A stretch of DNA of 40,925 nucleotides from a virus. Its lineage: Duplodnaviria > Heunggongvirae > Uroviricota > Caudoviricetes. A program made the translations under genes and the position numbers. The DNA is taken from IMG/VR virus record IMGVR_UViG_2585427787_000014; one strand, 5' to 3'. Numbering within the stretch: position 1 is the first letter of the stretch; every line of letters starts with the position of its first letter. The notes under the pieces were generated by a model. It did no database searches, had not been told where the DNA came from, and worked only from the letters and a program-made list of their open reading frames with translations. Below are positions 5,892 to 40,925 of this stretch, in pieces.

Positions 5892-5908
5892 ATTACCTTT
5901 CGGGTAAT
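5892..5908. promoter_or_regulatory. 17-bp palindrome copy (ATTACC-TTTCG-GGTAAT)
   Basis: Perfect inverted repeat; in the divergent region between the tailspike start (5788) and gene 5985-6242. Confidence 0.55.
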
Positions 5909-5944: not shown

Positions 5945-5964
5945 TACTGTATAAATATACAGTT
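5945..5964. promoter_or_regulatory. LexA (SOS) box
   Basis: TACTGTATAAATATACAGTT fits CTGT-N8-ACAG with an AT-rich spacer; ends 6 bp before the first ATG (5970) and 21 bp before the SD-preceded ATG (5985). Confidence 0.7.
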
Positions 5965-5984
5965 ATTGCATGGAGAAGATTAAG

Positions 5985-6242
5985 ATGCAGCAGTATCACT
6001 ATCCACTGGAAGACGGATTTACCGAAAGGATTCACACGCCGGGAGGCGTCAGGTCACTGGTGGAAGGATCGCACTTGATGAAATTACTCCGGGATCTCGA
6101 TAAGGATGGATTTAATGTCGATGGCCCACTTGCCGAACTGACTGCACTGATTAACTACGTCACCAGCTCACAGATGTCTATGCGGGATCTGCAAACACAT
6201 CTCGACTATTGTGCCGAACAATTACGAAAACAAACCAGATAA
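5985..6242 (+). CDS. small antirepressor-like protein; standalone homologue of the C-terminal domain of the Bro-N protein at 6558-7268
   Basis: GGAG Shine-Dalgarno 9 nt before ATG 5985 (alternative ATG at 5970). About 45% identity by eye over ~80 aa to the C-terminus of the 6558-7268 product (LMKLLRDLDKDGFNVDGPLAELT...RDLQTHLDY vs LMNLLNQLQDDGHDVSGAAAELT...RDIQTHAEY). Confidence 0.6.
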   Translation: MQQYHYPLEDGFTERIHTPGGVRSLVEGSHLMKLLRDLDKDGFNVDGPLAELTALINYVTSSQMSMRDLQTHLDYCAEQLRKQTR

Positions 6243-32945: not shown

Positions 32946-33757
32946 AAGAAATCCTCCCACGCTTCAGGGCTGTTCCAGTGCGGAACGTTGTTATCAGGTA
33001 ATGTTGATTGCTTCTGTCTGCTAATCTGCAGCCGCCTTGCCAGCTTCTGCTCCCACTGTGCCTGATGGTATGCCTTACCCTCAGCCATCCAGTAAATTCT
33101 GAACTCTGCAAGTTCCTGTGCCGTTGGCAGACTGTCCAGGTAGATCCCCTGCAATGAGCTTTTCCGAAGAAAGTCATCTGATGGCTGCCATTGTTCATGC
33201 ATGACAAATTTGCCTAATTGCCCTGGCCCACCAGGAGGAGCAAAGTTATTCATCACGGCGTTGTTTGCGCCGGGGTCATGAGGCACAGAATCCCCGCTTT
33301 TTGTCCTGCTCTCCCTCTCTTGGTTAAATGACTGGTTATATGACTGGTTCTGGATCCCGTTTTTGGGATCATTCAACATCCCGTTTTTGGGATCATTCAA
33401 CATCCCGTTTTTGGGTATATTACCGTTTTCGGTAACATTACCGTTTTCGGGTTCATTGCCCCTCTCCCGGTTGCCTTTAATGTTCCCGTTTTTGGTTATA
33501 TTAAGAGAGAAAACCCGCACCCTTTTTGTCGCTCCCTTTCTCTCTCCGGTATCTGAAATAAGCCCCATTTTCATGAGCGATATAAGCCCGGCCTGCACGG
33601 TTTTTTTATTCAGGCAAGTGTCTTTAACGAGGCGTTCTATGCTGGGGTAGCAGAGGTTATATTCATCGGCTCTGTCAGCCATCGAGAGCAGTATGAGCTT
33701 TAATGACGAGCTACCTGGATCTGTCTCCCAGGCCCAATCTGTTGCATGTCTGCTCAT
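32942..33757 (-). CDS. replication initiator (lambda O-like) with HTH N-domain and internal repeat region
   Basis: 271-aa ORF; N-terminal HTH-like region (LKLILLSMADRADEYNLCYPSIERLVKDTCLNKKTVQAGLISL), central repeat-encoded segment (KNGMLNDP x2), immediately upstream of the P-like gene. Confidence 0.6.
   Translation of the reverse strand: MSRHATDWAWETDPGSSSLKLILLSMADRADEYNLCYPSIERLVKDTCLNKKTVQAGLISLMKMGLISDTGERKGATKRVRVFSLNITKNGNIKGNRERGNEPENGNVTENGNIPKNGMLNDPKNGMLNDPKNGIQNQSYNQSFNQERESRTKSGDSVPHDPGANNAVMNNFAPPGGPGQLGKFVMHEQWQPSDDFLRKSSLQGIYLDSLPTAQELAEFRIYWMAEGKAYHQAQWEQKLARRLQISRQKQSTLPDNNVPHWNSPEAWEDFL
33353..33460. repeat. iteron-like tandem direct repeats inside the O-like gene (candidate origin)
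   Basis: Two perfect 24-bp units (GATCCCGTTTTTGGGATCATTCAA / CATCCCGTTTTTGGGATCATTCAA) plus a degenerate third, then two 18-bp units (ATTACCGTTTTCGGTAAC / ATTACCGTTTTCGGGTTC); a further CCCGTTTTTGG copy at about 33484. Confidence 0.6.
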
Positions 33758-33772
33758 GATTAATCTCCGCTA

Positions 33773-33973
33773 TCAGCTTGAATGTTGTGGGGAGGAATTA
33801 ATCATGATCTGCTTAATCTCTGCCCTGATACGACGGTTTGATTCCATGGTGCACTCAACACAGTGTCCGTTGTAAACCCAGCGTTCACTGTCATGTCCGT
33901 GCTTACATGGTTTTCCGGTGTAGTAGCGTTTAAGTCCGCGCTTTGCGGCATCAATACGTGTAATGATTTCCAT
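33773..33973 (-). CDS. small Cys/His-rich (zinc-binding-like) protein in the CII position
   Basis: Start taken at MEIITRID...; the track ORF begins at a TTG at 34036 and an ATG at 34009 is also possible. Contains CKHGHDSERWVYNGHCVEC. Confidence 0.4.
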   Translation of the reverse strand: MEIITRIDAAKRGLKRYYTGKPCKHGHDSERWVYNGHCVECTMESNRRIRAEIKQIMINSSPQHSS

Positions 33974-34052
33974 GGTAAGCCCTGTTATTAGTATTGGGAT
34001 TACGGTCATTTTGTGCTGACACAAAAAAAAGATCAACCAGATTTGGTTATTT

Positions 34053-34069
34053 ATTACCTTTGAGGTACG
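34053..34069. promoter_or_regulatory. 17-bp palindrome copy, imperfect (ATTACC-TTTGA-GGTACG)
   Basis: Between a hairpin after the Cro-like gene and the next gene. Confidence 0.4.
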
Positions 34070-34083
34070 AATAGATATGAAAA

Positions 34084-34100
34084 GACCGCCGGATGGCGGC
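34084..34100 (-). terminator. hairpin terminator after the Cro-like gene (tR1-like position)
   Basis: Stem CCGCC / GGCGG with loop GGAT; on the minus strand followed by TCTTTTCAT. Confidence 0.4.
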
Positions 34101-34123
34101 CTACAGAGGGTTGTGGCTGGATA

Positions 34124-34354
34124 TCATGAGTAGAAGAAGTATGCCAGTTCTGCTTTTGAGCGCAGCCATTGTCTTGTTTTACAGGCTTTAAAAAGCCCAT
34201 TCATCAATACCTTACCTGGCATTTTGCGCTTACCTGTTAAGTGAGTCTGGATATAGTGACTCGTCGTTCCGGCTTCCTGTGCGAAGGCTTCACGCTCGTC
34301 CGGAGTAAGTGCAAGCCAGTGCTTTTTGAAATCGAAATGTCCGTTATCGCTCAT
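34124..34354 (-). CDS. Cro-like small HTH regulator (first gene of the replication-side operon)
   Basis: 76-aa ORF with HTH-like segment (REAFAQEAGTTSHYIQTHLTGKRKMP); divergent from the CI-like gene across an operator-rich region. Confidence 0.55.
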   Translation of the reverse strand: MSDNGHFDFKKHWLALTPDEREAFAQEAGTTSHYIQTHLTGKRKMPGKVLMNGLFKACKTRQWLRSKAELAYFFYS

Positions 34355-34389
34355 AGCTATTGCCTGATATTTATTTCAGATAATAAATA

Positions 34390-34406
34390 TTCACCCATAA
34401 GGTAAC
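34390..34406. promoter_or_regulatory. operator-like palindrome, imperfect (TTCACC-CATAA-GGTAAC); site 1 of 3 in the divergent switch region
   Basis: 37 bp upstream of the Cro-like start. Confidence 0.45.
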
Positions 34407-34420
34407 AAAAATCAAGGATA

Positions 34421-34437
34421 GTTACCTATGAGGTGCA
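34421..34437. promoter_or_regulatory. operator-like palindrome, imperfect (GTTACC-TATGA-GGTGCA); site 2 of 3
   Basis: Directly abuts site 3. Confidence 0.4.
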
Positions 34438-34454
34438 TTTACCTGTTGGGTAAT
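34438..34454. promoter_or_regulatory. operator-like palindrome (TTTACC-TGTTG-GGTAAT); site 3 of 3
   Basis: 55 bp upstream of the CI-like ATG (34509); same spacer TGTTG as the copy at 35150. Confidence 0.5.
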
Positions 34455-34508
34455 ATTGCTTTAAATTGAATCATCTACTGATTCATATATGAGGCGATTT
34501 TCCAGAAA

Positions 34509-35093
34509 ATGAAAAGTATCCAGGACGTCCGCAGGCAAAATCTCAACGACTTGATCGACCGTGAATTCAATGGTGTTCAGACGCGGATGGCAGAAAAACT
34601 TGGAACTCAGGCAAATCTGGTAAACCGCTGGGCTCTTGGCAAGAAGGTTATCGGCGACCAGGTTGCGCGAAAAATTGAAGCTGCCGCCAATAAACCCCGT
34701 AACTGGCTTGATATCGATCGCTCGCTTTCTCAGGAAGGTTTTCAGCCTGTCGGCCCGAGTGATATAGGTCAGCTGGCTGCTCACAACCTGGAACGCTGGA
34801 TGAGCGAAAGCCGCGACCTTTCAACGCAGGGAAAACTACACCGCGCATCCGGCGTCGCCCAGGTGACAATCAGCCGCCTGTTAAACAATGAGGTCAGCGT
34901 TTCCATTTCCACCCTGGAGAATGTTGCATCCGCATTCGGGCGTCATGGCTATGAATTACTGATTCACCCGCACGACCCTGCGACTATCAACTATGACCGC
35001 TCGCGCTACGCATTGTTACCCGAAACCGAGAAAGCAAAGATCGAAAGTTACATTGAATTTGTCATCAACCAGAACGAAAAAAACAAACAATAA
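34509..35093 (+). CDS. CI-like repressor with two HTH (XRE-type) domains and no recognisable peptidase domain
   Basis: 194-aa ORF; HTH-like segments near residues 20-60 (GVQTRMAEKLGTQANLVNRWALGKK) and 95-150 (LHRASGVAQVTISRLLNNEV); no LexA/S24-like Ser-Lys region seen; followed by a terminator. Confidence 0.55.
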   Translation: MKSIQDVRRQNLNDLIDREFNGVQTRMAEKLGTQANLVNRWALGKKVIGDQVARKIEAAANKPRNWLDIDRSLSQEGFQPVGPSDIGQLAAHNLERWMSESRDLSTQGKLHRASGVAQVTISRLLNNEVSVSISTLENVASAFGRHGYELLIHPHDPATINYDRSRYALLPETEKAKIESYIEFVINQNEKNKQ

Positions 35094-35114
35094 AACTATA
35101 GTTTTCAGCAAGTA

Positions 35115-35136
35115 AGCCGCCTCATGGCGGCTTTTT
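35115..35136 (+). terminator. rho-independent terminator after the repressor gene
   Basis: Stem GCCGCC / GGCGGC with loop TCAT, followed by T6. Confidence 0.65.
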
Positions 35137-35149
35137 TATTGCCTGTTAG

Positions 35150-35166
35150 ATTACCTGTTGGGTAAT
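35150..35166. promoter_or_regulatory. operator-like palindrome (ATTACC-TGTTG-GGTAAT), upstream site of the leftward-type early promoter
   Basis: Perfect; about 20 bp upstream of a TTGACA hexamer (35186-35191). Confidence 0.55.
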
Positions 35167-35211
35167 TTTTTTAACTCATATCTATTGACATCAAACCAGA
35201 TACGCATAATT

Positions 35212-35228
35212 ATTACCTCAACGGTAAC
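35212..35228. promoter_or_regulatory. operator-like palindrome (ATTACC-TCAAC-GGTAAC) overlapping the putative -10 region
   Basis: Starts 20 bp after TTGACA and ends 18 bp before ATG 35247. Confidence 0.55.
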
Positions 35229-35246
35229 AGACCGAGGTAACAAGTT

Positions 35247-35399
35247 ATGCAGTGGAAAATCATCAACGGTTGGTACTGCGTTACTGCATGCGGATTCATG
35301 AGCTGGAAGTTCCGCACCTTACAGGAAGGCATTAAGTGGGCTTTCGTCAGCAAAGAAGCTCGCGATGTGGCCAACGATAACGAGATATGGGAGGGCTGA
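35247..35399 (+). CDS. small early protein (50 aa)
   Basis: Not in the track. GAGGT 8 nt upstream of ATG; MQWKIINGWYCVTACGFMSWKFRTLQEGIKWAFVSKEARDVANDNEIWEG. Confidence 0.35.
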   Translation: MQWKIINGWYCVTACGFMSWKFRTLQEGIKWAFVSKEARDVANDNEIWEG

Positions 35400-35401
35400 T
35401 A

Positions 35402-35701
35402 ATGAACGTTAATCAGCAGAAAAATCTTCAAAAAATCATGCTGGCATTCGACAAGGACTACCGCCTGTCAGAACAGCTATATGACCGACAAGTTGAACTG
35501 ATTGAGAGCATCCGACTTCATCAACTGTCCTCAACTTTCGACGTTGTAACAGGCAAAGGCGTTCGCCAGGAAGTACTGGAGGCTGCTAAAGACAGCCCTG
35601 AGTTCGAAGAACTGATGGATGCCTATCGGCGAGAGGCAATGGCAATTATCGCCCGCTGGGATCTGGCGGATCAGCTTGATGGACAGAGGGACGCGGCATG
35701 A
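35402..35701 (+). CDS. hypothetical early protein
   Basis: GGAGGG before ATG 35402 (track start 35387); helical, charged. Confidence 0.5.
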   Translation: MNVNQQKNLQKIMLAFDKDYRLSEQLYDRQVELIESIRLHQLSSTFDVVTGKGVRQEVLEAAKDSPEFEELMDAYRREAMAIIARWDLADQLDGQRDAA

Positions 35702-35904
35702 AACCAACACTCCTCTCATTGCTGCGAGGTGGAAAACACAGCATCCGAGATATGGCAAAGATTCTTGGTATCTCAAGATCGAAGGTTTCTTGGTTCATCG
35801 CTGAGCTTGAACGTCGCAAATGGGTAGAGGTAACCAGGAGCGCAATATATTTCCACGATGGAACCCGTTCCAACAAGCAGAACGAATACAAGGTTAAGTT
35901 ATGA
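35698..35904 (+). CDS. small HTH/winged-helix DNA-binding protein
   Basis: 68-aa ORF, ATGA-coupled; segment IRDMAKILGISRSKVSWFIAELERRKWV is HTH-like. Confidence 0.5.
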   Translation: MKPTLLSLLRGGKHSIRDMAKILGISRSKVSWFIAELERRKWVEVTRSAIYFHDGTRSNKQNEYKVKL

Positions 35905-36722
35905 ATACTGGCATCTATTTCGACATCAGCAATGAGGACTACCACGCCGGTGACGGCGTGAGTAAGTCGCAACTGGACATGGTTGCCAAGAATCCGGCGC
36001 TTCTTAAATGGGTTCAGGCAGCACCAGAAGACGAAGAGAAAAAGTCTGCACTAGATATGGGAACTGCATTGCACTGTCTGCTTCTTGAACCTGGAGAATT
36101 CGACAAACGCTTCATTGTTTCACCAAAGTTCGATCGTCGGACGAAACAAGGTAAAGCTGACGAAGAAGCATTTCTTCGTGATGTAGCGGATATGGGGATT
36201 GCGGTACTTGATGCCGAGCAGTGGCGGAAACTGGAGCTGATGCGTGATAGCGCAATGGCTCACCCGGCGGCACGCTGGATGCTGGAAGCACCTGGTTACT
36301 GCGAAGCATCAATGTACTGGAACGATGAAGAGACTGGTGAGTTGTGCCGCATTCGTCCAGACAAATGGCTGAACGAGCACAACGTGATCGTCGACGTGAA
36401 AAAGGTTGCAGATATGGACCGTTTTGCACGCCACATTGAGGAATTCCGCTACCACGTGCAGGACGCAATGTACCGCGAAGGCGCAATGAGGGTTACTGGT
36501 CAGCCGCATGGTTTTTTCTTTCTTGCCGTGAGCGAAAGCATTGATTGTGGTCGGTATCCGGTACGCGTGTTCGAGCTGGATGCGCAGGATGTCGATGCCG
36601 GGCACGCTCTGTTCCGCCGGGATCTGAATACCTATCACGAATGCCGCATCAATGATGAATGGGGCGGTGTGGAAATCATTAAACGCCCTGAGTGGGCACG
36701 CAAACAGGATATGTACATATGA
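35901..36722 (+). CDS. PD-(D/E)XK-type recombination exonuclease (Exo/RecE-like partner of the annealing protein)
   Basis: 273-aa ORF, ATGA-coupled to the Bet-like gene; D...D/E-x-K-like signature around IRPDKW...VIVDVKKV. Confidence 0.55.
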   Translation: MNTGIYFDISNEDYHAGDGVSKSQLDMVAKNPALLKWVQAAPEDEEKKSALDMGTALHCLLLEPGEFDKRFIVSPKFDRRTKQGKADEEAFLRDVADMGIAVLDAEQWRKLELMRDSAMAHPAARWMLEAPGYCEASMYWNDEETGELCRIRPDKWLNEHNVIVDVKKVADMDRFARHIEEFRYHVQDAMYREGAMRVTGQPHGFFFLAVSESIDCGRYPVRVFELDAQDVDAGHALFRRDLNTYHECRINDEWGGVEIIKRPEWARKQDMYI

Positions 36723-37660
36723 GCAACGACATCGCAAACATCAACGCACCAGTAGACACAGCAATCGCTGGAACTGCTGCAACTATTTTCAGCCCAGACG
36801 GCTTGAACCAACTGATGAAATTCGCCGAGGTAATGGCGAAAAGCCGCGTAACGGTACCGGCGCACCTCTCCGGGAAACCAGCTGATTGCATGGCCGTGGC
36901 AATGCAGGCTGCGCAGTGGGGAATGAACCCGTTTGCCGTTGCTCAGAAAACCCATGTTGTGAACGGCACGCTAGGTTATGAAGCCCAATTAGTAAACGCA
37001 GTTATCTCAACGATGTCGCCAACAAAAGATCGCATCAACTACGAGTGGTTCGGGCCGTGGGAACGCGTGATCGGTAAGTTTGTTGAGAAAACATCCAAAA
37101 ACGGCCATCCATATATCGCACCAGGCTGGACTCTAAAAGACGAAGAAGGCTGCGGTGTTCGCGTATGGGCAACCATGAAGGGCGAGGATCAACCTCGAGT
37201 GCTTGAGTTAATGCTGTCTCAAGCACAGGTAAGAAACTCCACACTTTGGGCCAGTGATCCGAAACAACAACTCGCATACCTTGCGACAAAACGCTGGTCT
37301 CGCTTGCACTGTCCTGACGTAATCATGGGCGTCTACACACCAGACGAATTACAGGAAACGGCACCGCGCGTTGAGCGAGACATTACTCCGCAAACGACCA
37401 CTGCTGCGGGAATGAACAGTCTGATCAACGCTAAACCAGTGAAAAAGCCTGATGAGCAAACGCGTAAAGCGGATAGCCGTGATCCAGAAGAAATGCTGAT
37501 GGCCTTTACCAGCGCAGCGATGAATTACAGCACTGTCTCCGAACTAGATAAGGCTTACAAATACATTGCACAAAAACTTTCAGATGATGACGAACTGCTG
37601 GCAAAAGCCACCGACGTTTACAGCGTTCGTCGGGAAGAATTAAACGAAACATCTATGTAA
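36719..37660 (+). CDS. single-strand annealing protein, Bet/Red-beta-like
   Basis: Start MSNDIAN overlapping the nuclease stop (ATGA). Similarity to lambda Bet as I recall it (TLWASDPKQQLAYLATKRWSRLHCPDVIMGVYTPDE vs GPWQSHPKRMLRHKAMIQCARLAFGFAGIYDKDE). Confidence 0.6.
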   Translation: MSNDIANINAPVDTAIAGTAATIFSPDGLNQLMKFAEVMAKSRVTVPAHLSGKPADCMAVAMQAAQWGMNPFAVAQKTHVVNGTLGYEAQLVNAVISTMSPTKDRINYEWFGPWERVIGKFVEKTSKNGHPYIAPGWTLKDEEGCGVRVWATMKGEDQPRVLELMLSQAQVRNSTLWASDPKQQLAYLATKRWSRLHCPDVIMGVYTPDELQETAPRVERDITPQTTTAAGMNSLINAKPVKKPDEQTRKADSRDPEEMLMAFTSAAMNYSTVSELDKAYKYIAQKLSDDDELLAKATDVYSVRREELNETSM

Positions 37661-37709
37661 CCACCACCGCGGCGCCACGCGCGCCGCACTGCAACCAAGA
37701 GAGGTATTT

Positions 37710-37958
37710 ATGAAAGGTGCATTAGGTAAGAAGGAACTCCTGGCGGTGGTGCCACTGTCATGGAGCACTATCGACCGTATGGAGCGCGCAGGGGAATTTC
37801 CTAAACGCTGGTATATCACTGACAAACGCTGCGCATGGAACCGTGACGAAGTTGAGCGTTGGCTTGATGAACGTCAGGCAGCAAGCCCGGCAGAGTTCCA
37901 GGGTAAAAAGCCTCCTGTTCAGCAACGTGTATATCGTCCTGTGAGCAACGCTGCATGA
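37710..37958 (+). CDS. AlpA-like small DNA-binding protein (possible excisionase/regulator)
   Basis: 82-aa ORF with AGAGGT Shine-Dalgarno; motif STIDRMERAGEFPKRWYITDKRCAWNRDEVERWL resembles AlpA/Xis-type HTH. Confidence 0.55.
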   Translation: MKGALGKKELLAVVPLSWSTIDRMERAGEFPKRWYITDKRCAWNRDEVERWLDERQAASPAEFQGKKPPVQQRVYRPVSNAA

Positions 37959-38067
37959 GTGCGCTGCTAAGGCACTGGAGCAAATGGTCAGGATGGTACT
38001 TATTCCTGGCCTCTGTTTCAGCATGGCTTTATCTGCTGGCATTAATTTTCAGAGAGGGTTGGATTAA

Positions 38068-38367
38068 GTGAGAAAGTTAAGCCGACTTGAAAAATATCAC
38101 ATGAACAAGGTTTCAATGCGCAGCCCTTCAAAGGTTGTTGCCGTTACTCCTGCGGCGATAGAGATCGAAAAACGCGCGATTGAAAGAGAGAAAAAAGGGC
38201 AGTTCCGCATTGCCGCCCACCTTTGGCTTCAGTGTATGGATGTTGCTTCTGGTGATGTTGAGCGTGCAAGGATCGCGGTTCGCAGGGACCAATGTATCAC
38301 AAAAGGTAACGGCCTTCGCCGTGGCGACTATAGCGGCATAGGATGTTGTGGGGTGGTTTATGACTAA
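38068..38367 (+). CDS. hypothetical small regulatory-type protein
   Basis: 99-aa ORF, GTG start with GAGGG upstream (alternative ATG at 38101). Confidence 0.4.
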   Translation: MRKLSRLEKYHMNKVSMRSPSKVVAVTPAAIEIEKRAIEREKKGQFRIAAHLWLQCMDVASGDVERARIAVRRDQCITKGNGLRRGDYSGIGCCGVVYD

Positions 38368-39010
38368 GAAATACACACTAATCTATGCAGATCCACCCTG
38401 GGTATACCGGGACAAAGCCGCAGATGGTAATCGCGGTGCCGGTTTTAAATATCCGGTTATGAGTGTGCTGGATATCTGCCGCCTTCCTGTGTGGGATTTG
38501 GCCGATGAAAACTGTCTGTTGGCCATGTGGTGGGTGCCAACACAACCACTCGAAGCGCTAAAAGTTGTTGAAGCCTGGGGATTCCGTCTGATGACCATGA
38601 AGGGCTTCACGTGGATAAAATGTGGTAGTCGACAACCAGATAAACTGGTTATGGGTATGGGACACATGACTCGCGCCAATAGTGAAGATTGCCTGTTTGC
38701 AGTAAAGGGAAAACTACATCCGCGCATTAATGCAGGGATCGTTCAGTCATTTACCGCACCGCGGCTTGAGCATTCAAGAAAACCAGATGTCGTTCGTGAA
38801 AAACTTGTGCAATTGTTAGGCGATGTTTCTCGCATTGAACTGTTCGCCCGCCAGTCGTCTCATGGCTTCGATGTTTGGGGTAATCAGTGCGAAGACCCGG
38901 CAGTGCAACTAACTCCTGGATACGCGTTGGATATTGCCAGATTAACAAATGCATTCAGCAATGCTCCGCTGTCACCAACAGACAACCAGGGGCGGGAGCG
39001 TGCAGCATGA
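38360..39010 (+). CDS. MT-A70 family DNA N6-adenine methyltransferase
   Basis: DPPW catalytic motif near the N-terminus ([12 protein letters not shown]); start MTKKYT preceded by GGGGTGG (track start 38348). Confidence 0.7.
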
Positions 39011-39666
39011 ACCTATATCAACGCATCAATGGCGCTGACTGGTGCAATATCTTCGTCGTCGGCGATCTGCATGGGTGCTACACGCTGCTGATGAACGAAC
39101 TCGACAAAGTTTCATTCGACCCGGCGCGCGATTTGCTTATTTCCGTTGGTGACCTTGTTGACCGCGGCGCTGAAAACGTCGAATGCCTGGATTTGATTAC
39201 TATGCCTTGGTTCCGAGCTGTTCGTGGCAACCATGAGCAGATGATGCTGGATGCACTGGTCAACGGCGGAAGTTTCGGACATTGGATGTCAAACGGCGGT
39301 GGATGGTGGCACCAACTTGATTCTGAGCAGGATGTGCAACTCAAATACCTTCTGCCAAAGGTTACCAACCTCCCGATGATTATCGAACTGGTTACCGGCA
39401 ATAAGAAGGTCGTCATCTGCCACGCAGACTACCCGCACAACGAATACGCATTCGATAAGCCAGTACCGGAAGAAATGGTGATATGGAATCGTGAGCGGGT
39501 TAGCGACGCGCAGGACGGTATTGTCTCGGAGATAACCGGTGCCGATTTGTTCATCTTCGGTCATACGCCAGCACATCACCCACTGGTGTATGCAAACCAA
39601 ATGTACATCGACACCGGCGCAGTGTTCTGCGGAAATCTGACGCTTACCAAAGTCCAGGAAGGATAG
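39007..39666 (+). CDS. Ser/Thr protein phosphatase (metallophosphoesterase, lambda NinI-like)
   Basis: Start MNLYQRI overlapping the methylase stop (ATGA); metallophosphatase motifs GDLHG, GDLVDRG, GNHE. Confidence 0.75.
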
Positions 39667-39668
39667 AA

Positions 39669-40925
39669 TTATTTATTACTGTCTTCCATCCACTTCTCAA
39701 ACTTCGACGGGGAGAACGGAATCAGATCCGTATGCTCCCCGTCAATCCAAGAATCAATCATATCGGCCCACTGCTGCAACATGTAGGCGCGCTGTCTGGC
39801 GTATTCCGCTTTGTTATATACGGCGCGCACACCTTTCTGCTCATGTGCCAGAGCCTTTTCAATCCAGTCTGAAGGATAACCAGCCTCATGCAACAACGTA
39901 CTGGCTGTACGGCGCATATCGTGTACGGTAAAATCCTGAATATGCTCACCATCTTCATTTATTATTTTCACCGTTCTGTCGATCAGAGAGTTCAGCGCGG
40001 CATTAGATAATGGCTTCCGGAAATTGTAACGACCAGGAACCAGATATTCACTTCCACCAGCGCACATCTGCAACCCGACCAATATATCCTGTGCCTGTTT
40101 AGGCAGGTAAATAACGTGCGCCCGGCTTCCCTTCATGCGGTCTGGAGGAATTGTCCATGTCCATTTTTTAAAATCTATTTCATCCCACGTTGCATTGGTG
40201 AATTCGCCTTTACGAACCATAGTGATAAGCACCAACTTTAAAGCCATTTTCATAGTACCCATAGCACCAATGGCATCCAGCGTGCGGAAGAACAGGCCAA
40301 TTTCTTCTGGTGTCAGTGTTCGCTCTCGTGGTTTAAATATGGCGATAGACGAAGGTTTAATGTCAGCCGCAGGATTAAACAAACCATGACCACGGTCATT
40401 GGCGTGACGGTATACGCTGCTGATGATCTCCCTGGCCTGTACTGCTGTTGCACGGCCACCGCGTTCGACAATCCGGTCACACAAATCACGAACCATCGAT
40501 GTGGTAATTTCAGTCATCATTTTGTTGCCAAGAACCGGAAGTATGTCACGGTCGATCACCGCCTGCTTCATTGCGCGGGTACTGTCAGCCAGGATGACGT
40601 GTTTCATATAACTGTCGGTATGTACCGCAAACGTCTCGGCACCACGAATCTTTTTGATACCGTCACGTTTAGCCGCAGCCGGTGACTGGCCTGCTTTAAG
40701 CAGCTTCTTTGCAGCAATCAGTTCTTCTCGCGCTTCTGCCAGGCTGATACCGTCACGCCCATACTGCCCGATTACCAGCGTTTCGCGGCGACCGTTGATA
40801 CGGTAGTCGTAGCGAAACGAGACCGTGCCTGACGTAAGAACAGCTACATACAGCCCGTCACGATCGGAGACCTTGTACAGTTTGTCCTGCGGCTTGAGGT
40901 TTTTTAATTTTGTATCGGTAAGCAC
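39669..40925 (-). CDS. int: tyrosine integrase, P4-like (N-terminal arm-binding domain); 5' end at or just beyond the window edge
   Basis: 418-aa ORF reaching the window end; N-terminus (LTDTKLKNLKPQDKLYKVSDRDGLYVAV) typical of P4-type integrases; C-terminal catalytic R...HxxR...Y pattern (HDMRRTA...Y). Confidence 0.8.
   Translation of the reverse strand: MLTDTKLKNLKPQDKLYKVSDRDGLYVAVLTSGTVSFRYDYRINGRRETLVIGQYGRDGISLAEAREELIAAKKLLKAGQSPAAAKRDGIKKIRGAETFAVHTDSYMKHVILADSTRAMKQAVIDRDILPVLGNKMMTEITTSMVRDLCDRIVERGGRATAVQAREIISSVYRHANDRGHGLFNPAADIKPSSIAIFKPRERTLTPEEIGLFFRTLDAIGAMGTMKMALKLVLITMVRKGEFTNATWDEIDFKKWTWTIPPDRMKGSRAHVIYLPKQAQDILVGLQMCAGGSEYLVPGRYNFRKPLSNAALNSLIDRTVKIINEDGEHIQDFTVHDMRRTASTLLHEAGYPSDWIEKALAHEQKGVRAVYNKAEYARQRAYMLQQWADMIDSWIDGEHTDLIPFSPSKFEKWMEDSNK

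What the first reader, a model, noticed from the sequence alone, without database searches (positions are those of the whole stretch)
35247..35399. Unlisted 50-aa ORF as first gene of the early recombination operon
A well-placed GAGGT Shine-Dalgarno and ATG follow directly after the promoter-proximal palindrome. The Trp/Cys-containing product is in the position where lambdoid phages encode small regulators such as N-like or Kil-like proteins.
Basis: seen in the sequence. Interest (0 to 1): 0.38.

Follow-up and report, generated by a model that had tools for sequence, protein, structure and literature searches.

The report
Conserved small early phage gene
The 50-codon reading frame is a real, already catalogued but functionally unstudied phage gene (epsilon15 gp37 / phiV10 gp39), the first gene switched on when this prophage's repressor is removed; it is not related to lambda N or Kil.

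Summary
The ORF at 35247-35399 (+), its GAGGT ribosome-binding site and the palindrome in front of it are all there. A 50-aa ORF alone is not beyond chance, but conservation settles it. The window is a phiV10/epsilon15-type (Uetakevirus) prophage and the product is 100% identical to phiV10 gp39 (= epsilon15 gp37, PHROG 898, "hypothetical protein"). Across 17 distinct relatives pS is 0.64 against pN 0.21, and the frame is intact in all 21 loci examined. The palindrome TTACCtcaacGGTAA is one of two operators of the SPC32H-type Rep repressor; they bracket a conserved TTGACA-17-AATTAT promoter. All ten full-length Rep homologues found by a Rep-seeded scan of bacterial genomes have this gene next, whatever gene follows. 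The family is small (about 50 aa, Enterobacterales) with no Pfam, NCBIfam or PDB sequence match. AlphaFold gives a generic three-strand-plus-helix fold (pLDDT 75). No similarity to lambda N, Kil or CIII was found, nor a nut site or downstream terminators. The 36-residue core stays 75-92% identical while Rep and gene 2 diverge and recombine on either side. I infer, without proof, a host-directed immediate-early binding protein. It is an already known gene of unknown function and of low to moderate interest.

The parts
34509..35093 (+). Rep, the prophage repressor (194 aa, two HTH domains), read in the same direction as the ORF
   Evidence: Pfam HTH_3; matches the SPC32H repressor structure 5D50_A at E 4e-42 over residues 1-190
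35114..35140 (+). Intrinsic terminator of the rep transcript (8-bp GC-rich stem plus T run)
   Evidence: Terminator scan; annotated as a terminator in phiV10; inverted repeat I3
35151..35165 (.). Distal Rep operator TTACCTGTTGGGTAA, upstream of the -35 hexamer
   Evidence: The motif TTACC-N5-GGTAA occurs 15 times in the window against 0.64 expected; conserved in 7 phages and in 10 Rep-seeded loci; the equivalent sites are annotated 'protein_bind repressor' in epsilon15
35185..35213 (+). Early-left promoter: TTGACA (35185-35190), 17-nt spacer, AATTAT (35208-35213)
   Evidence: 10 of 12 consensus matches and the only + strand promoter-like site in 35000-39800; the -35 hexamer and the ATTAT of the -10 are invariant in 7 phages
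35213..35227 (.).
   Evidence: annotated as a repressor site in epsilon15
35234..35238 (+). Shine-Dalgarno GAGGT, 8 nt before the ATG
   Evidence: Read from the sequence; GAGGT is present in front of the gene in all 7 aligned phages
35247..35399 (+). The 50-aa gene (epsilon15 gp37 / phiV10 gp39 homologue, PHROG 898); residues 1-36 form a conserved core and 37-50 a variable tail
   Evidence: AlphaFold model with strands 2-6, 9-14, 18-22 and helix 25-49, pLDDT 75
35390..35394 (+). GGAGG inside the last codons of the gene: Shine-Dalgarno of gene 2, 7 nt before its ATG at 35402 (close translational linkage)
   Evidence: Read from the sequence; in relatives the stop overlaps the next start (ATGA) whatever the next gene is
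35402..35701 (+). Gene 2, 99 aa (PHROG 856, unknown function; weakly Gam-like)
   Evidence: pairwise E 4e-4 to the Pfam-Gam-positive protein at the same position in L007; E 0.002 to lambda Gam
35698..35904 (+). 68-aa winged-helix (MarR-like) ORF, absent from phiV10
   Evidence: Pfam MarR_2 and HTH_24; PGAP calls a shorter MarR family protein here; the phiV10 match breaks into two pieces here
35901..36722 (+). PD-(D/E)XK (RecE-like) exonuclease
   Evidence: Pfam DUF3799, E 1.3e-22
36719..37660 (+). RecT single-strand annealing protein
   Evidence: Pfam RecT, E 1.4e-43; start taken by analogy with the PGAP annotation
37710..37958 (+). AlpA-type excisionase/regulator, further down the same operon
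   Evidence: Pfam Phage_AlpA
5947..6242 (+). LexA box CTGTATAAATATACAG (5947-5962) and ant (5970-6242), the antirepressor that inactivates Rep and so turns the ORF's promoter on
   Evidence: LexA-box pattern; the 90-aa product matches the SPC32H anti-repressor 5D50_E at E 1.6e-46; sequence

Best explanation
35247-35399 is a real protein-coding gene, the epsilon15 gp37 / phiV10 gp39 homologue. It is the first cistron of the repressor-controlled early-left operon of a phiV10-like (Uetakevirus) prophage. Shown here: the gene is under purifying selection; it sits behind a conserved sigma-70 promoter; that promoter is bracketed and overlapped by two TTACC-N5-GGTAA palindromes, which the epsilon15 record annotates as repressor-binding sites; the window encodes the SPC32H-type Rep, and its antirepressor Ant behind a LexA box. 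Inferred from that system (abstract of Kim & Ryu 2013, J Virol, recalled from memory; the paper could not be read here): in the lysogen Rep occupies the operators and the gene is silent. After DNA damage LexA falls off, Ant is made and Rep is disabled. The promoter then fires and this 50-aa protein is the first product, translated in close linkage with gene 2, whose ribosome-binding site lies in its last codons. The product is predicted to be a soluble three-stranded sheet packed on a helix (residues 1-36) followed by a variable helical tail. Mechanism (inference, not shown): the core stays 75-92% identical while Rep (42-78%) and gene 2 (44-85%) diverge and are exchanged independently on either side. 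Its partner is therefore more likely something conserved among enterobacterial hosts than the fast-evolving phage repressor. I therefore read it as an immediate-early, host-directed protein-binding factor. That is the same functional class as the small lambda PL products Kil, CIII and Ral, but it is unrelated to them in sequence. It is not an N-type antiterminator. Confidence is about 0.95 that the gene is real and regulated as described, and about 0.35 for the host-directed binding role; the figure given is for the whole statement.
For: Gene and selection. Identity with phiV10 gp39, epsilon15 gp37 and PHROG 898. Promoter and operators conserved in 7 phages and 10 further loci; annotated repressor sites in epsilon15. 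Rep and Ant homology to PDB 5D50 and the LexA box. Obligate linkage with Rep: 10 of 10 full-length Rep loci found by a Rep-seeded genome scan have the gene next. It is also always the first gene when the second gene differs: PHROG 856, Gam, a 348-aa unknown, or a 550-aa RecE-like protein. Single promoter and no internal + strand terminator. Fold. The core is more conserved than either neighbour and is independent of the Rep clade, and the tail tracks gene 2. The protein is roughly neutral in charge, and the basic residues on the sheet are not conserved (alignment), which argues against nucleic-acid binding.
Confidence: 0.4

Rival explanations
1. A component of the lysis-lysogeny switch itself. 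The protein would act on Rep, Ant, the Cro-like protein or operator DNA, for example to lock in the lytic state once the early-left promoter has fired, or to modulate establishment of lysogeny.
Against: The core is 83% identical between window and epsilon15 although their Rep proteins are only 42% identical, and the protein's variation does not follow the Rep clades. A specific Rep partner would be expected to co-diverge. Net charge is about zero and the basic sheet residues (K4, K21, R23) are not conserved across the family. The known antirepressor is a different gene.
Confidence: 0.2
2. Specifically a Kil-type cell-division inhibitor (blocks FtsZ and causes filamentation on induction).
For: It is a small protein in the early-left operon next to recombination genes, as kil is in lambda. 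From my own knowledge, Kil proteins of different phages are unrelated in sequence, so lack of similarity does not exclude this.
Against: There is no similarity to lambda Kil by BLASTP or profile comparison. Nothing in the sequence or fold points to FtsZ. This is one of many possible host targets.
Confidence: 0.1
3. The peptide itself has little function. The ORF would persist as a translated leader that loads ribosomes for the coupled downstream genes, and/or as a conserved joint at which the immunity and recombination modules recombine.
For: Its stop is 2 nt from, or overlaps, the start of whatever gene follows, and gene 2's Shine-Dalgarno lies in its last codons. A mosaic junction lies inside its 3' end near codon 37, with the tail tracking gene 2.
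Against: Amino-acid sequence rather than nucleotide sequence is conserved: pS 0.64 against pN 0.21, synonymous sites close to saturation between window and Tyrion, and 9 synonymous against 1 non-synonymous change in codons 1-25. Invariant residues (G8, T13, W31, F33) fit a folded core.
Confidence: 0.07
4. A CIII-type inhibitor of a host protease (FtsH) that stabilises a lysogeny-promoting factor.
For: It is about the size of lambda CIII (CDS 33299-33463), lies in the equivalent operon, and both begin with MQ-aromatic (CIII sequence recalled from memory; a lead only).
Against: BLASTP finds no alignment and hhalign gives probability 0.4%. No CII-like partner was identified in the window. The predicted fold is mostly sheet at the N-terminus, unlike the CIII amphipathic helix (my own knowledge).
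Confidence: 0.05
5. An N-like transcription antiterminator.
For: Map position only: first gene behind the repressor-controlled leftward-type promoter.
Against: There is no similarity to N and no Arg-rich motif (2 Arg in 50 aa). The roughly 26-nt leader is filled by the operator. No boxA lies nearby, there is no significant or conserved RNA hairpin, and no + strand terminator is detected in the 4.6 kb downstream.
Confidence: 0.03

Closest known systems
phiV10 gp39 (YP_512294.1) / epsilon15 gp37 (NP_848245.1) / PHROG 898, 'hypothetical protein'
   Same: 100% identical to phiV10 gp39 and 79% to epsilon15 gp37. Full-length PHROG 898 match at E 1.9e-38. Same position between rep and the recombination genes.
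   Different: Nothing; it is this gene. No function has been assigned and no paper in the searchable library mentions it.
Lambda N (first gene of PL)
   Same: Map position: first gene transcribed from the repressor-controlled promoter lying downstream of, and co-directional with, the repressor gene.
   Different: No sequence similarity, no Arg-rich motif, no nut site, and no downstream terminators to override.
Lambda Kil, CIII and Ral (small host-directed products of the PL operon)
   Same: About 50-aa early-left products co-transcribed with recombination functions; the proposed role class is the same.
   Different: No detectable homology to Kil or CIII. Different predicted fold. Here the gene is promoter-proximal, not internal to the operon.
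SPC32H Ant (small LexA-controlled antirepressor of the same phage group, PDB 5D50 chain E)
   Same: A small regulatory protein of the same Rep-based switch.
   Different: Ant is a different gene in this window (5970-6242, E 1.6e-46 to 5D50_E). The family profile of the 50-aa protein finds nothing of 5D50 in the PDB.
Generic beta3-alpha modules (AP2 domain, HicB N-terminal domain, UPF0339/YegP, MmoD, T7 Gp1.2)
   Different: Sequence identity is 2-14%, with no profile match to Pfam or PDB. The matches span unrelated functions, so they give a fold class only.

Membership tests
PHROG 898 / epsilon15 gp37 family | Full-length sequence match to the family profile | tested here: met
   E 1.9e-38, residues 1-50 on profile positions 1-50 of 50; 100% identical to phiV10 gp39
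PHROG 898 / epsilon15 gp37 family | Position: first gene after the double-HTH Rep and its operator-promoter-operator cassette | tested here: met
   Window; 7 phages; L007-L011; 10 of 10 Rep-seeded genomic loci
Lambda N antiterminators | Sequence similarity and an N-terminal arginine-rich RNA-binding motif | tested here: not met
   hhalign probability 0.09%; only R23 and R39 in the sequence
Lambda N antiterminators | nut site (boxA plus boxB hairpin) in the leader or early transcript | tested here: not met
   No boxA match (up to 1 mismatch) anywhere between 29477 and the window end; the leader fold has z -1.28 and is not conserved in divergent relatives; no Rfam match reaches its gathering score
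Lambda N antiterminators | Terminators within the operon that require antitermination | tested here: not met
   No + strand terminator-like site between 35140 and 39800 (a simple consensus scan, so Rho-dependent sites are not covered)
Lambda Kil | Sequence similarity to Kil | tested here: not met
   BLASTP finds no alignment; hhalign probability 0.19%
Lambda Kil | FtsZ inhibition / filamentation on expression | not testable with these tools
   Needs an expression experiment
Lambda CIII | Sequence similarity to CIII | tested here: not met
   BLASTP finds no alignment; hhalign probability 0.44%
Lambda CIII | Inhibition of FtsH / stabilisation of CII | not testable with these tools
   Needs biochemistry or genetics
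SPC32H-type Ant antirepressor | Homology to the Ant chain of PDB 5D50 | tested here: not met
   The profile search of the PDB returns only chance hits with E of at least 0.29; the real Ant is at 5970-6242
AP2 / integrase-N type beta3-alpha DNA-binding domains | Three-stranded sheet plus C-terminal helix | tested here: inconclusive
AP2 / integrase-N type beta3-alpha DNA-binding domains | Conserved basic and aromatic DNA-contact residues on the sheet, and an overall basic charge | tested here: not met
   Net charge is about -1. K4, K21 and R23 vary to Q/V/E, T/E and Q/T/A/S in family members

The most novel reading that the evidence does not exclude
The 36-residue core is a previously unrecognised class of immediate-early phage effector that binds a conserved enterobacterial protein. 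It would be retained at the head of the early operon in every Rep/Ant-type (Uetakevirus-like) temperate phage because it is needed in the first minutes after derepression or infection. Nothing here excludes this, and nothing demonstrates it.
Probability: 0.3. Interest if true: 0.5.

Novelty: already known. Interest (0 to 1): 0.2.

Why it matters
About one complete E. coli genome in ten (559 of 5426) carries this region, and it is also found in Salmonella, Klebsiella, Enterobacter, Citrobacter and related genera. The gene is the most conserved element of the immunity/early-left junction and the first thing expressed on induction, yet it has no assigned function and is annotated inconsistently. 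It is a cheap target for a deletion and over-expression study in the well-characterised SPC32H/phiV10 Rep-Ant system. It is also a useful caution for annotators: PGAP sometimes omits it, and one phage record annotates the antisense strand instead. It does not change any current concept.

Tried and rejected
1. Pfam, NCBIfam and PDB sequence searches, with the single sequence and with profiles: no meaningful hit. DUF2985 (4 of 15 members, best E 0.0016) and a mucolipin transmembrane segment (E 0.29) were judged chance matches to the Trp-rich stretch.

2. HMM search of 1.84 billion representative proteins: 19 hits. One is a 1929-aa protein that proved to be a translated tandem repeat, an artefact. 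The others are short proteins of 32-69 aa, several of them truncated or frameshifted variants. No fusion to a known domain was found.

3. AlphaFold with the shallow alignment A2 gave a useless single helix (pLDDT 55). The more diverse A4 gave beta3-alpha at pLDDT 75.

5. Membrane-peptide idea (hydrophobic N-terminus): rejected because divergent members have polar or charged residues there (MVFKKNHQGKY...) and the pattern fits a hairpin with an NG turn.

6. Lambda CIII, Kil and N homology: rejected.

7. Being the SPC32H antirepressor: rejected, because Ant is elsewhere.

8. RNA element or start-codon hairpin: no Rfam match reaches its gathering score. The hairpin AUGCAGUG/UACUGCGU has z -1.28 and is absent in divergent relatives.

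9. Antisense ORF 35213-35431 (-), annotated as gp39 in phage Tyrion: not conserved; stop-free runs fall to 27-48 aa in L009, L011 and L020.

10. Literature: no paper in the library mentions the protein, its accession numbers or its sequence. The epsilon15 genome paper and the SPC32H J Virol paper are not held. The vB_EcoP_ZX5 paper treats only the repressor, antirepressor and integrase.

With A2 it returned 373 relatives, of which the 80 kept are all 100% identical, adding no diversity.

Full report
OBSERVATION. The reading frame 35247..35399 (+) exists as described. It has an ATG start and encodes 50 aa, MQWKIINGWYCVTACGFMSWKFRTLQEGIKWAFVSKEARDVANDNEIWEG. GAGGT lies at 35234-35238, 8 nt before the ATG. 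The palindrome TTACCTCAACGGTAA (35213-35227) follows and overlaps the -10 hexamer of a strong promoter-like site: TTGACA at 35185-35190, a 17-nt spacer, AATTAT at 35208-35213, 10 of 12 matches. This is the only such site on the + strand between 35000 and 39800. A 50-aa ORF is not by itself more than chance, since 82 ORFs of at least 25 aa overlap 33000-38000. The case therefore rests on conservation.

WHERE WE ARE. The region is 97-98% identical to phiV10 and a set of E. coli podophages of the genus Uetakevirus. In phiV10 the very same 153-nt gene is annotated as PhiV10p39, a 'hypothetical protein, similar to epsilon15p37'. In epsilon15 it is gp37. The product matches PHROG 898 (unknown function) over its full length at E 1.9e-38 and has no Pfam or NCBIfam family.

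tblastn finds it in 36 phage records: Escherichia 98-100%, Enterobacter 70-85%, Salmonella 75-81%, and Klebsiella 84% over the first 38 residues. The region occurs in 559 of 5426 complete E. coli genomes. Annotation is patchy. PGAP calls it in strain NR379 (WP_165389082.1) but not in strain C6. The Tyrion record annotates an antisense ORF instead. That probably explains 'unlisted'.

IS IT CODING? Yes.
- In seven phages, window versus Tyrion shows 17 synonymous against 9 non-synonymous differences (dN/dS 0.05), and 9 against 1 in codons 1-25.
- Over 17 distinct sequences, mean pS is 0.637 against pN 0.207, with pN<pS in 135 of 136 pairs. The two shifted forward frames give ratios above 1.
- The frame is open at 48-50 codons in all 21 loci examined, whereas the antisense frames are not conserved.

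REGULATION. Upstream lies a 194-aa double-HTH protein (34509-35093) that matches the crystal structure of the SPC32H repressor Rep (5D50_A, E 4e-42). It is followed by an intrinsic terminator (35114-35133). The promoter is bracketed by two copies of TTACC-N5-GGTAA, at 35151 and 35213. This motif occurs 15 times in the window against 0.64 expected. None of the 15 copies lies within an ATG-initiated ORF of at least 80 aa; one abuts the first base of such an ORF.

The operator, -35, -10 and overlapping operator arrangement is conserved base for base in seven phages. It is also conserved in ten further loci, some of which have a third operator just before the ribosome-binding site. The epsilon15 RefSeq record annotates the equivalent sites as 'protein_bind: repressor, lysogeny'.

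The window also encodes the SPC32H-type antirepressor Ant (5970-6242; 5D50_E, E 1.6e-46) directly behind a perfect LexA box, CTGTATAAATATACAG at 5947-5962. The published logic of this phage group is LexA controlling Ant, and Ant inactivating Rep (abstract of Kim & Ryu 2013, J Virol 87:11775, recalled from memory; the paper is not held). That logic therefore applies here. The 50-aa gene should be silent in the lysogen and the first product of the early-left operon on induction or infection.

No + strand terminator is detected for 4.6 kb downstream. One transcript can therefore cover the gene, gene 2 (35402-35701), a small winged-helix ORF, the PD-(D/E)XK exonuclease, RecT and the AlpA-type excisionase. 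The last codons TGG GAG GGC carry GGAGG (35390-35394), 7 nt before gene 2's ATG. In relatives the stop overlaps the next start.

FAMILY AND CONTEXT. A word-indexed search of 5.8 billion proteins gave 29 clusters, all from Enterobacteriaceae. A profile search of 1.84 billion representatives gave only 19 hits. One was a 1929-aa repeat artefact; the rest were short proteins of 32-69 aa, several of them truncated or frameshifted variants. In divergent members (36-57% identity) the two Cys are not conserved; G8, T13, W31 and F33 are invariant.

Their genomic contexts are the same: double-HTH repressor, about 250-315 bp of spacer, then this gene. The gene that follows differs, however. It is PHROG 856 here, a Pfam Gam protein in L007, a 348-aa unknown in L008-L010, and a 550-aa RecE-like protein in L011.

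As an unbiased test I searched bacterial genomes with a Rep alignment. All ten loci with a full-length Rep homologue have the small gene as the next gene. The loci come from Superficieibacter, Erwinia, Pseudocitrobacter, Pseudescherichia, Buttiauxella, a Pseudomonas lundensis assembly, Klebsiella, two Citrobacter and Scandinavium. Five loci matching only the Rep N-terminal domain lack it.

MOSAIC STRUCTURE. Among five phages, residues 1-36 are 75-92% identical in every pair, while Rep ranges over 42-78% and gene 2 over 44-85%. The tail (37 to the end) follows gene 2, not Rep:
- Tyrion versus epsilon15: tail 100%, gene 2 83%, Rep 45%.
- BUCT711 versus BUCT554: tail 77%, gene 2 85%, Rep 46%.
- Window versus BUCT554: tail 14%, gene 2 54%, Rep 75% (all).

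A recombination joint thus lies near codon 37. The core is the most conserved coding element of the region, and it does not co-vary with the repressor.

The map position equals that of lambda N. Against an N-like reading:
- there is no similarity to N and no Arg-rich motif;
- there is no boxA near the leader;
- there is no conserved or significant leader hairpin and no Rfam match that reaches its gathering score;
- there are no downstream terminators.

The gene shows no similarity to lambda Kil or CIII. A Kil-type activity cannot be excluded, because such proteins are defined by function.

MECHANISM. Shown: a real, selected gene behind a Rep-operator-controlled promoter, always first in the operon, closely linked in translation to the next gene, and encoding a small folded domain. 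Inferred: it is silent in the lysogen and first expressed after Ant-mediated derepression. Inferred more weakly: because the core is conserved independently of Rep and of the downstream module, and is neither basic nor hydrophobic enough for DNA or membrane binding, it most likely binds a conserved host protein. It would then be an immediate-early host-directed factor in the functional class of Kil, CIII and Ral.

Rivals are a switch component acting on Rep, Ant or DNA (supported by the strict linkage, weakened by the lack of co-divergence), a mere translated leader or recombination joint (weakened by the protein-level selection), and N-like antitermination (effectively excluded).

VERDICT. 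However, it is the already annotated epsilon15 gp37 / phiV10 gp39 hypothetical protein, not a new gene, and it is not N- or Kil-related by any testable criterion. Its function remains unknown. The strict association with the Rep cassette and the unusually high conservation of its 36-residue core make it a reasonable but modest experimental target.

Noticed in passing
window 3189, 5893, 6274, 7341, 24948, 25563, 28586, 28604, 32046, 32108, 34054, 34391, 34439, 35151, 35213: The palindrome TTACC-N5-GGTAA (up to 1 mismatch) occurs 15 times against 0.64 expected. None lies within an ATG-initiated ORF of at least 80 aa (one abuts the first base of such an ORF), and the copies often occur in pairs. 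Rep operators thus appear to be dispersed over the whole prophage, not confined to the immunity region. The epsilon15 RefSeq record already annotates eight such dispersed 'repressor' sites.
   Followed up: partly
window 5947-6242: A perfect LexA box, CTGTATAAATATACAG, lies directly upstream of a 90-aa ORF that matches the SPC32H antirepressor (PDB 5D50 chain E, E 1.6e-46). It is flanked by Rep-operator palindromes at 5893 and 6274. The prophage therefore has the complete LexA-Ant-Rep induction circuit.
   Followed up: yes
window 35402-35701: Gene 2 (99 aa, PHROG 856, no Pfam hit) shows weak similarity to the Pfam-Gam-positive protein at the same position in L007 (E 4e-4) and to lambda Gam (E 0.002, but over a different segment). 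It may be a distant Gam-like nuclease inhibitor.
   Followed up: partly
window 35698-35904: A 68-aa winged-helix (MarR/ArsR-like) ORF lies between gene 2 and the exonuclease. It is absent from phiV10, present in many E. coli prophages (PGAP calls a 50-aa version), and replaced by other small ORFs in Tyrion and BUCT711.
   Followed up: partly
window 35901-37660; L001 4299-6059: In the window and in most relatives the exonuclease and RecT are separate genes overlapping by 4 nt. The phiV10 record annotates a single 586-aa RecE-RecT fusion, possibly a frameshift or sequencing difference in that record.
   Followed up: no
L002 (Enterobacter phage Tyrion) 2405-2617, minus strand: The Tyrion record omits the 50-aa gene and annotates a 70-aa antisense ORF (gp39) across it. 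That antisense frame is not conserved in relatives, so this is probably a mis-annotation.
   Followed up: yes
window about 35355 (codon 37 of the ORF): A mosaic joint lies inside the gene. The C-terminal tail (37 to the end) co-varies with gene 2 and not with Rep, while residues 1-36 are conserved across both Rep clades.
   Followed up: yes
window 35247-35281: The start codon can pair in an 8-bp hairpin (AUGCAGUG with UACUGCGU, codons 10-12). It is kept in close relatives, with one-sided changes in L018, but is absent in divergent members and not significant (z -1.28).
   Followed up: partly
window 35210-35243: A 10-nt inverted repeat (TTATTACCTC / GAGGTAACAA, 90% complementary) joins the left half of the proximal operator to the Shine-Dalgarno region. 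The left arm probably lies upstream of the transcription start, so it is unlikely to act in the mRNA.
   Followed up: no
P0030 (protein-representative library): A 1929-aa 'protein' scored E 7.6e-18 against the family profile. It is a translated tandem repeat of about 55 aa and collects many weak partial matches; it is a database artefact, not a relative.
   Followed up: yes
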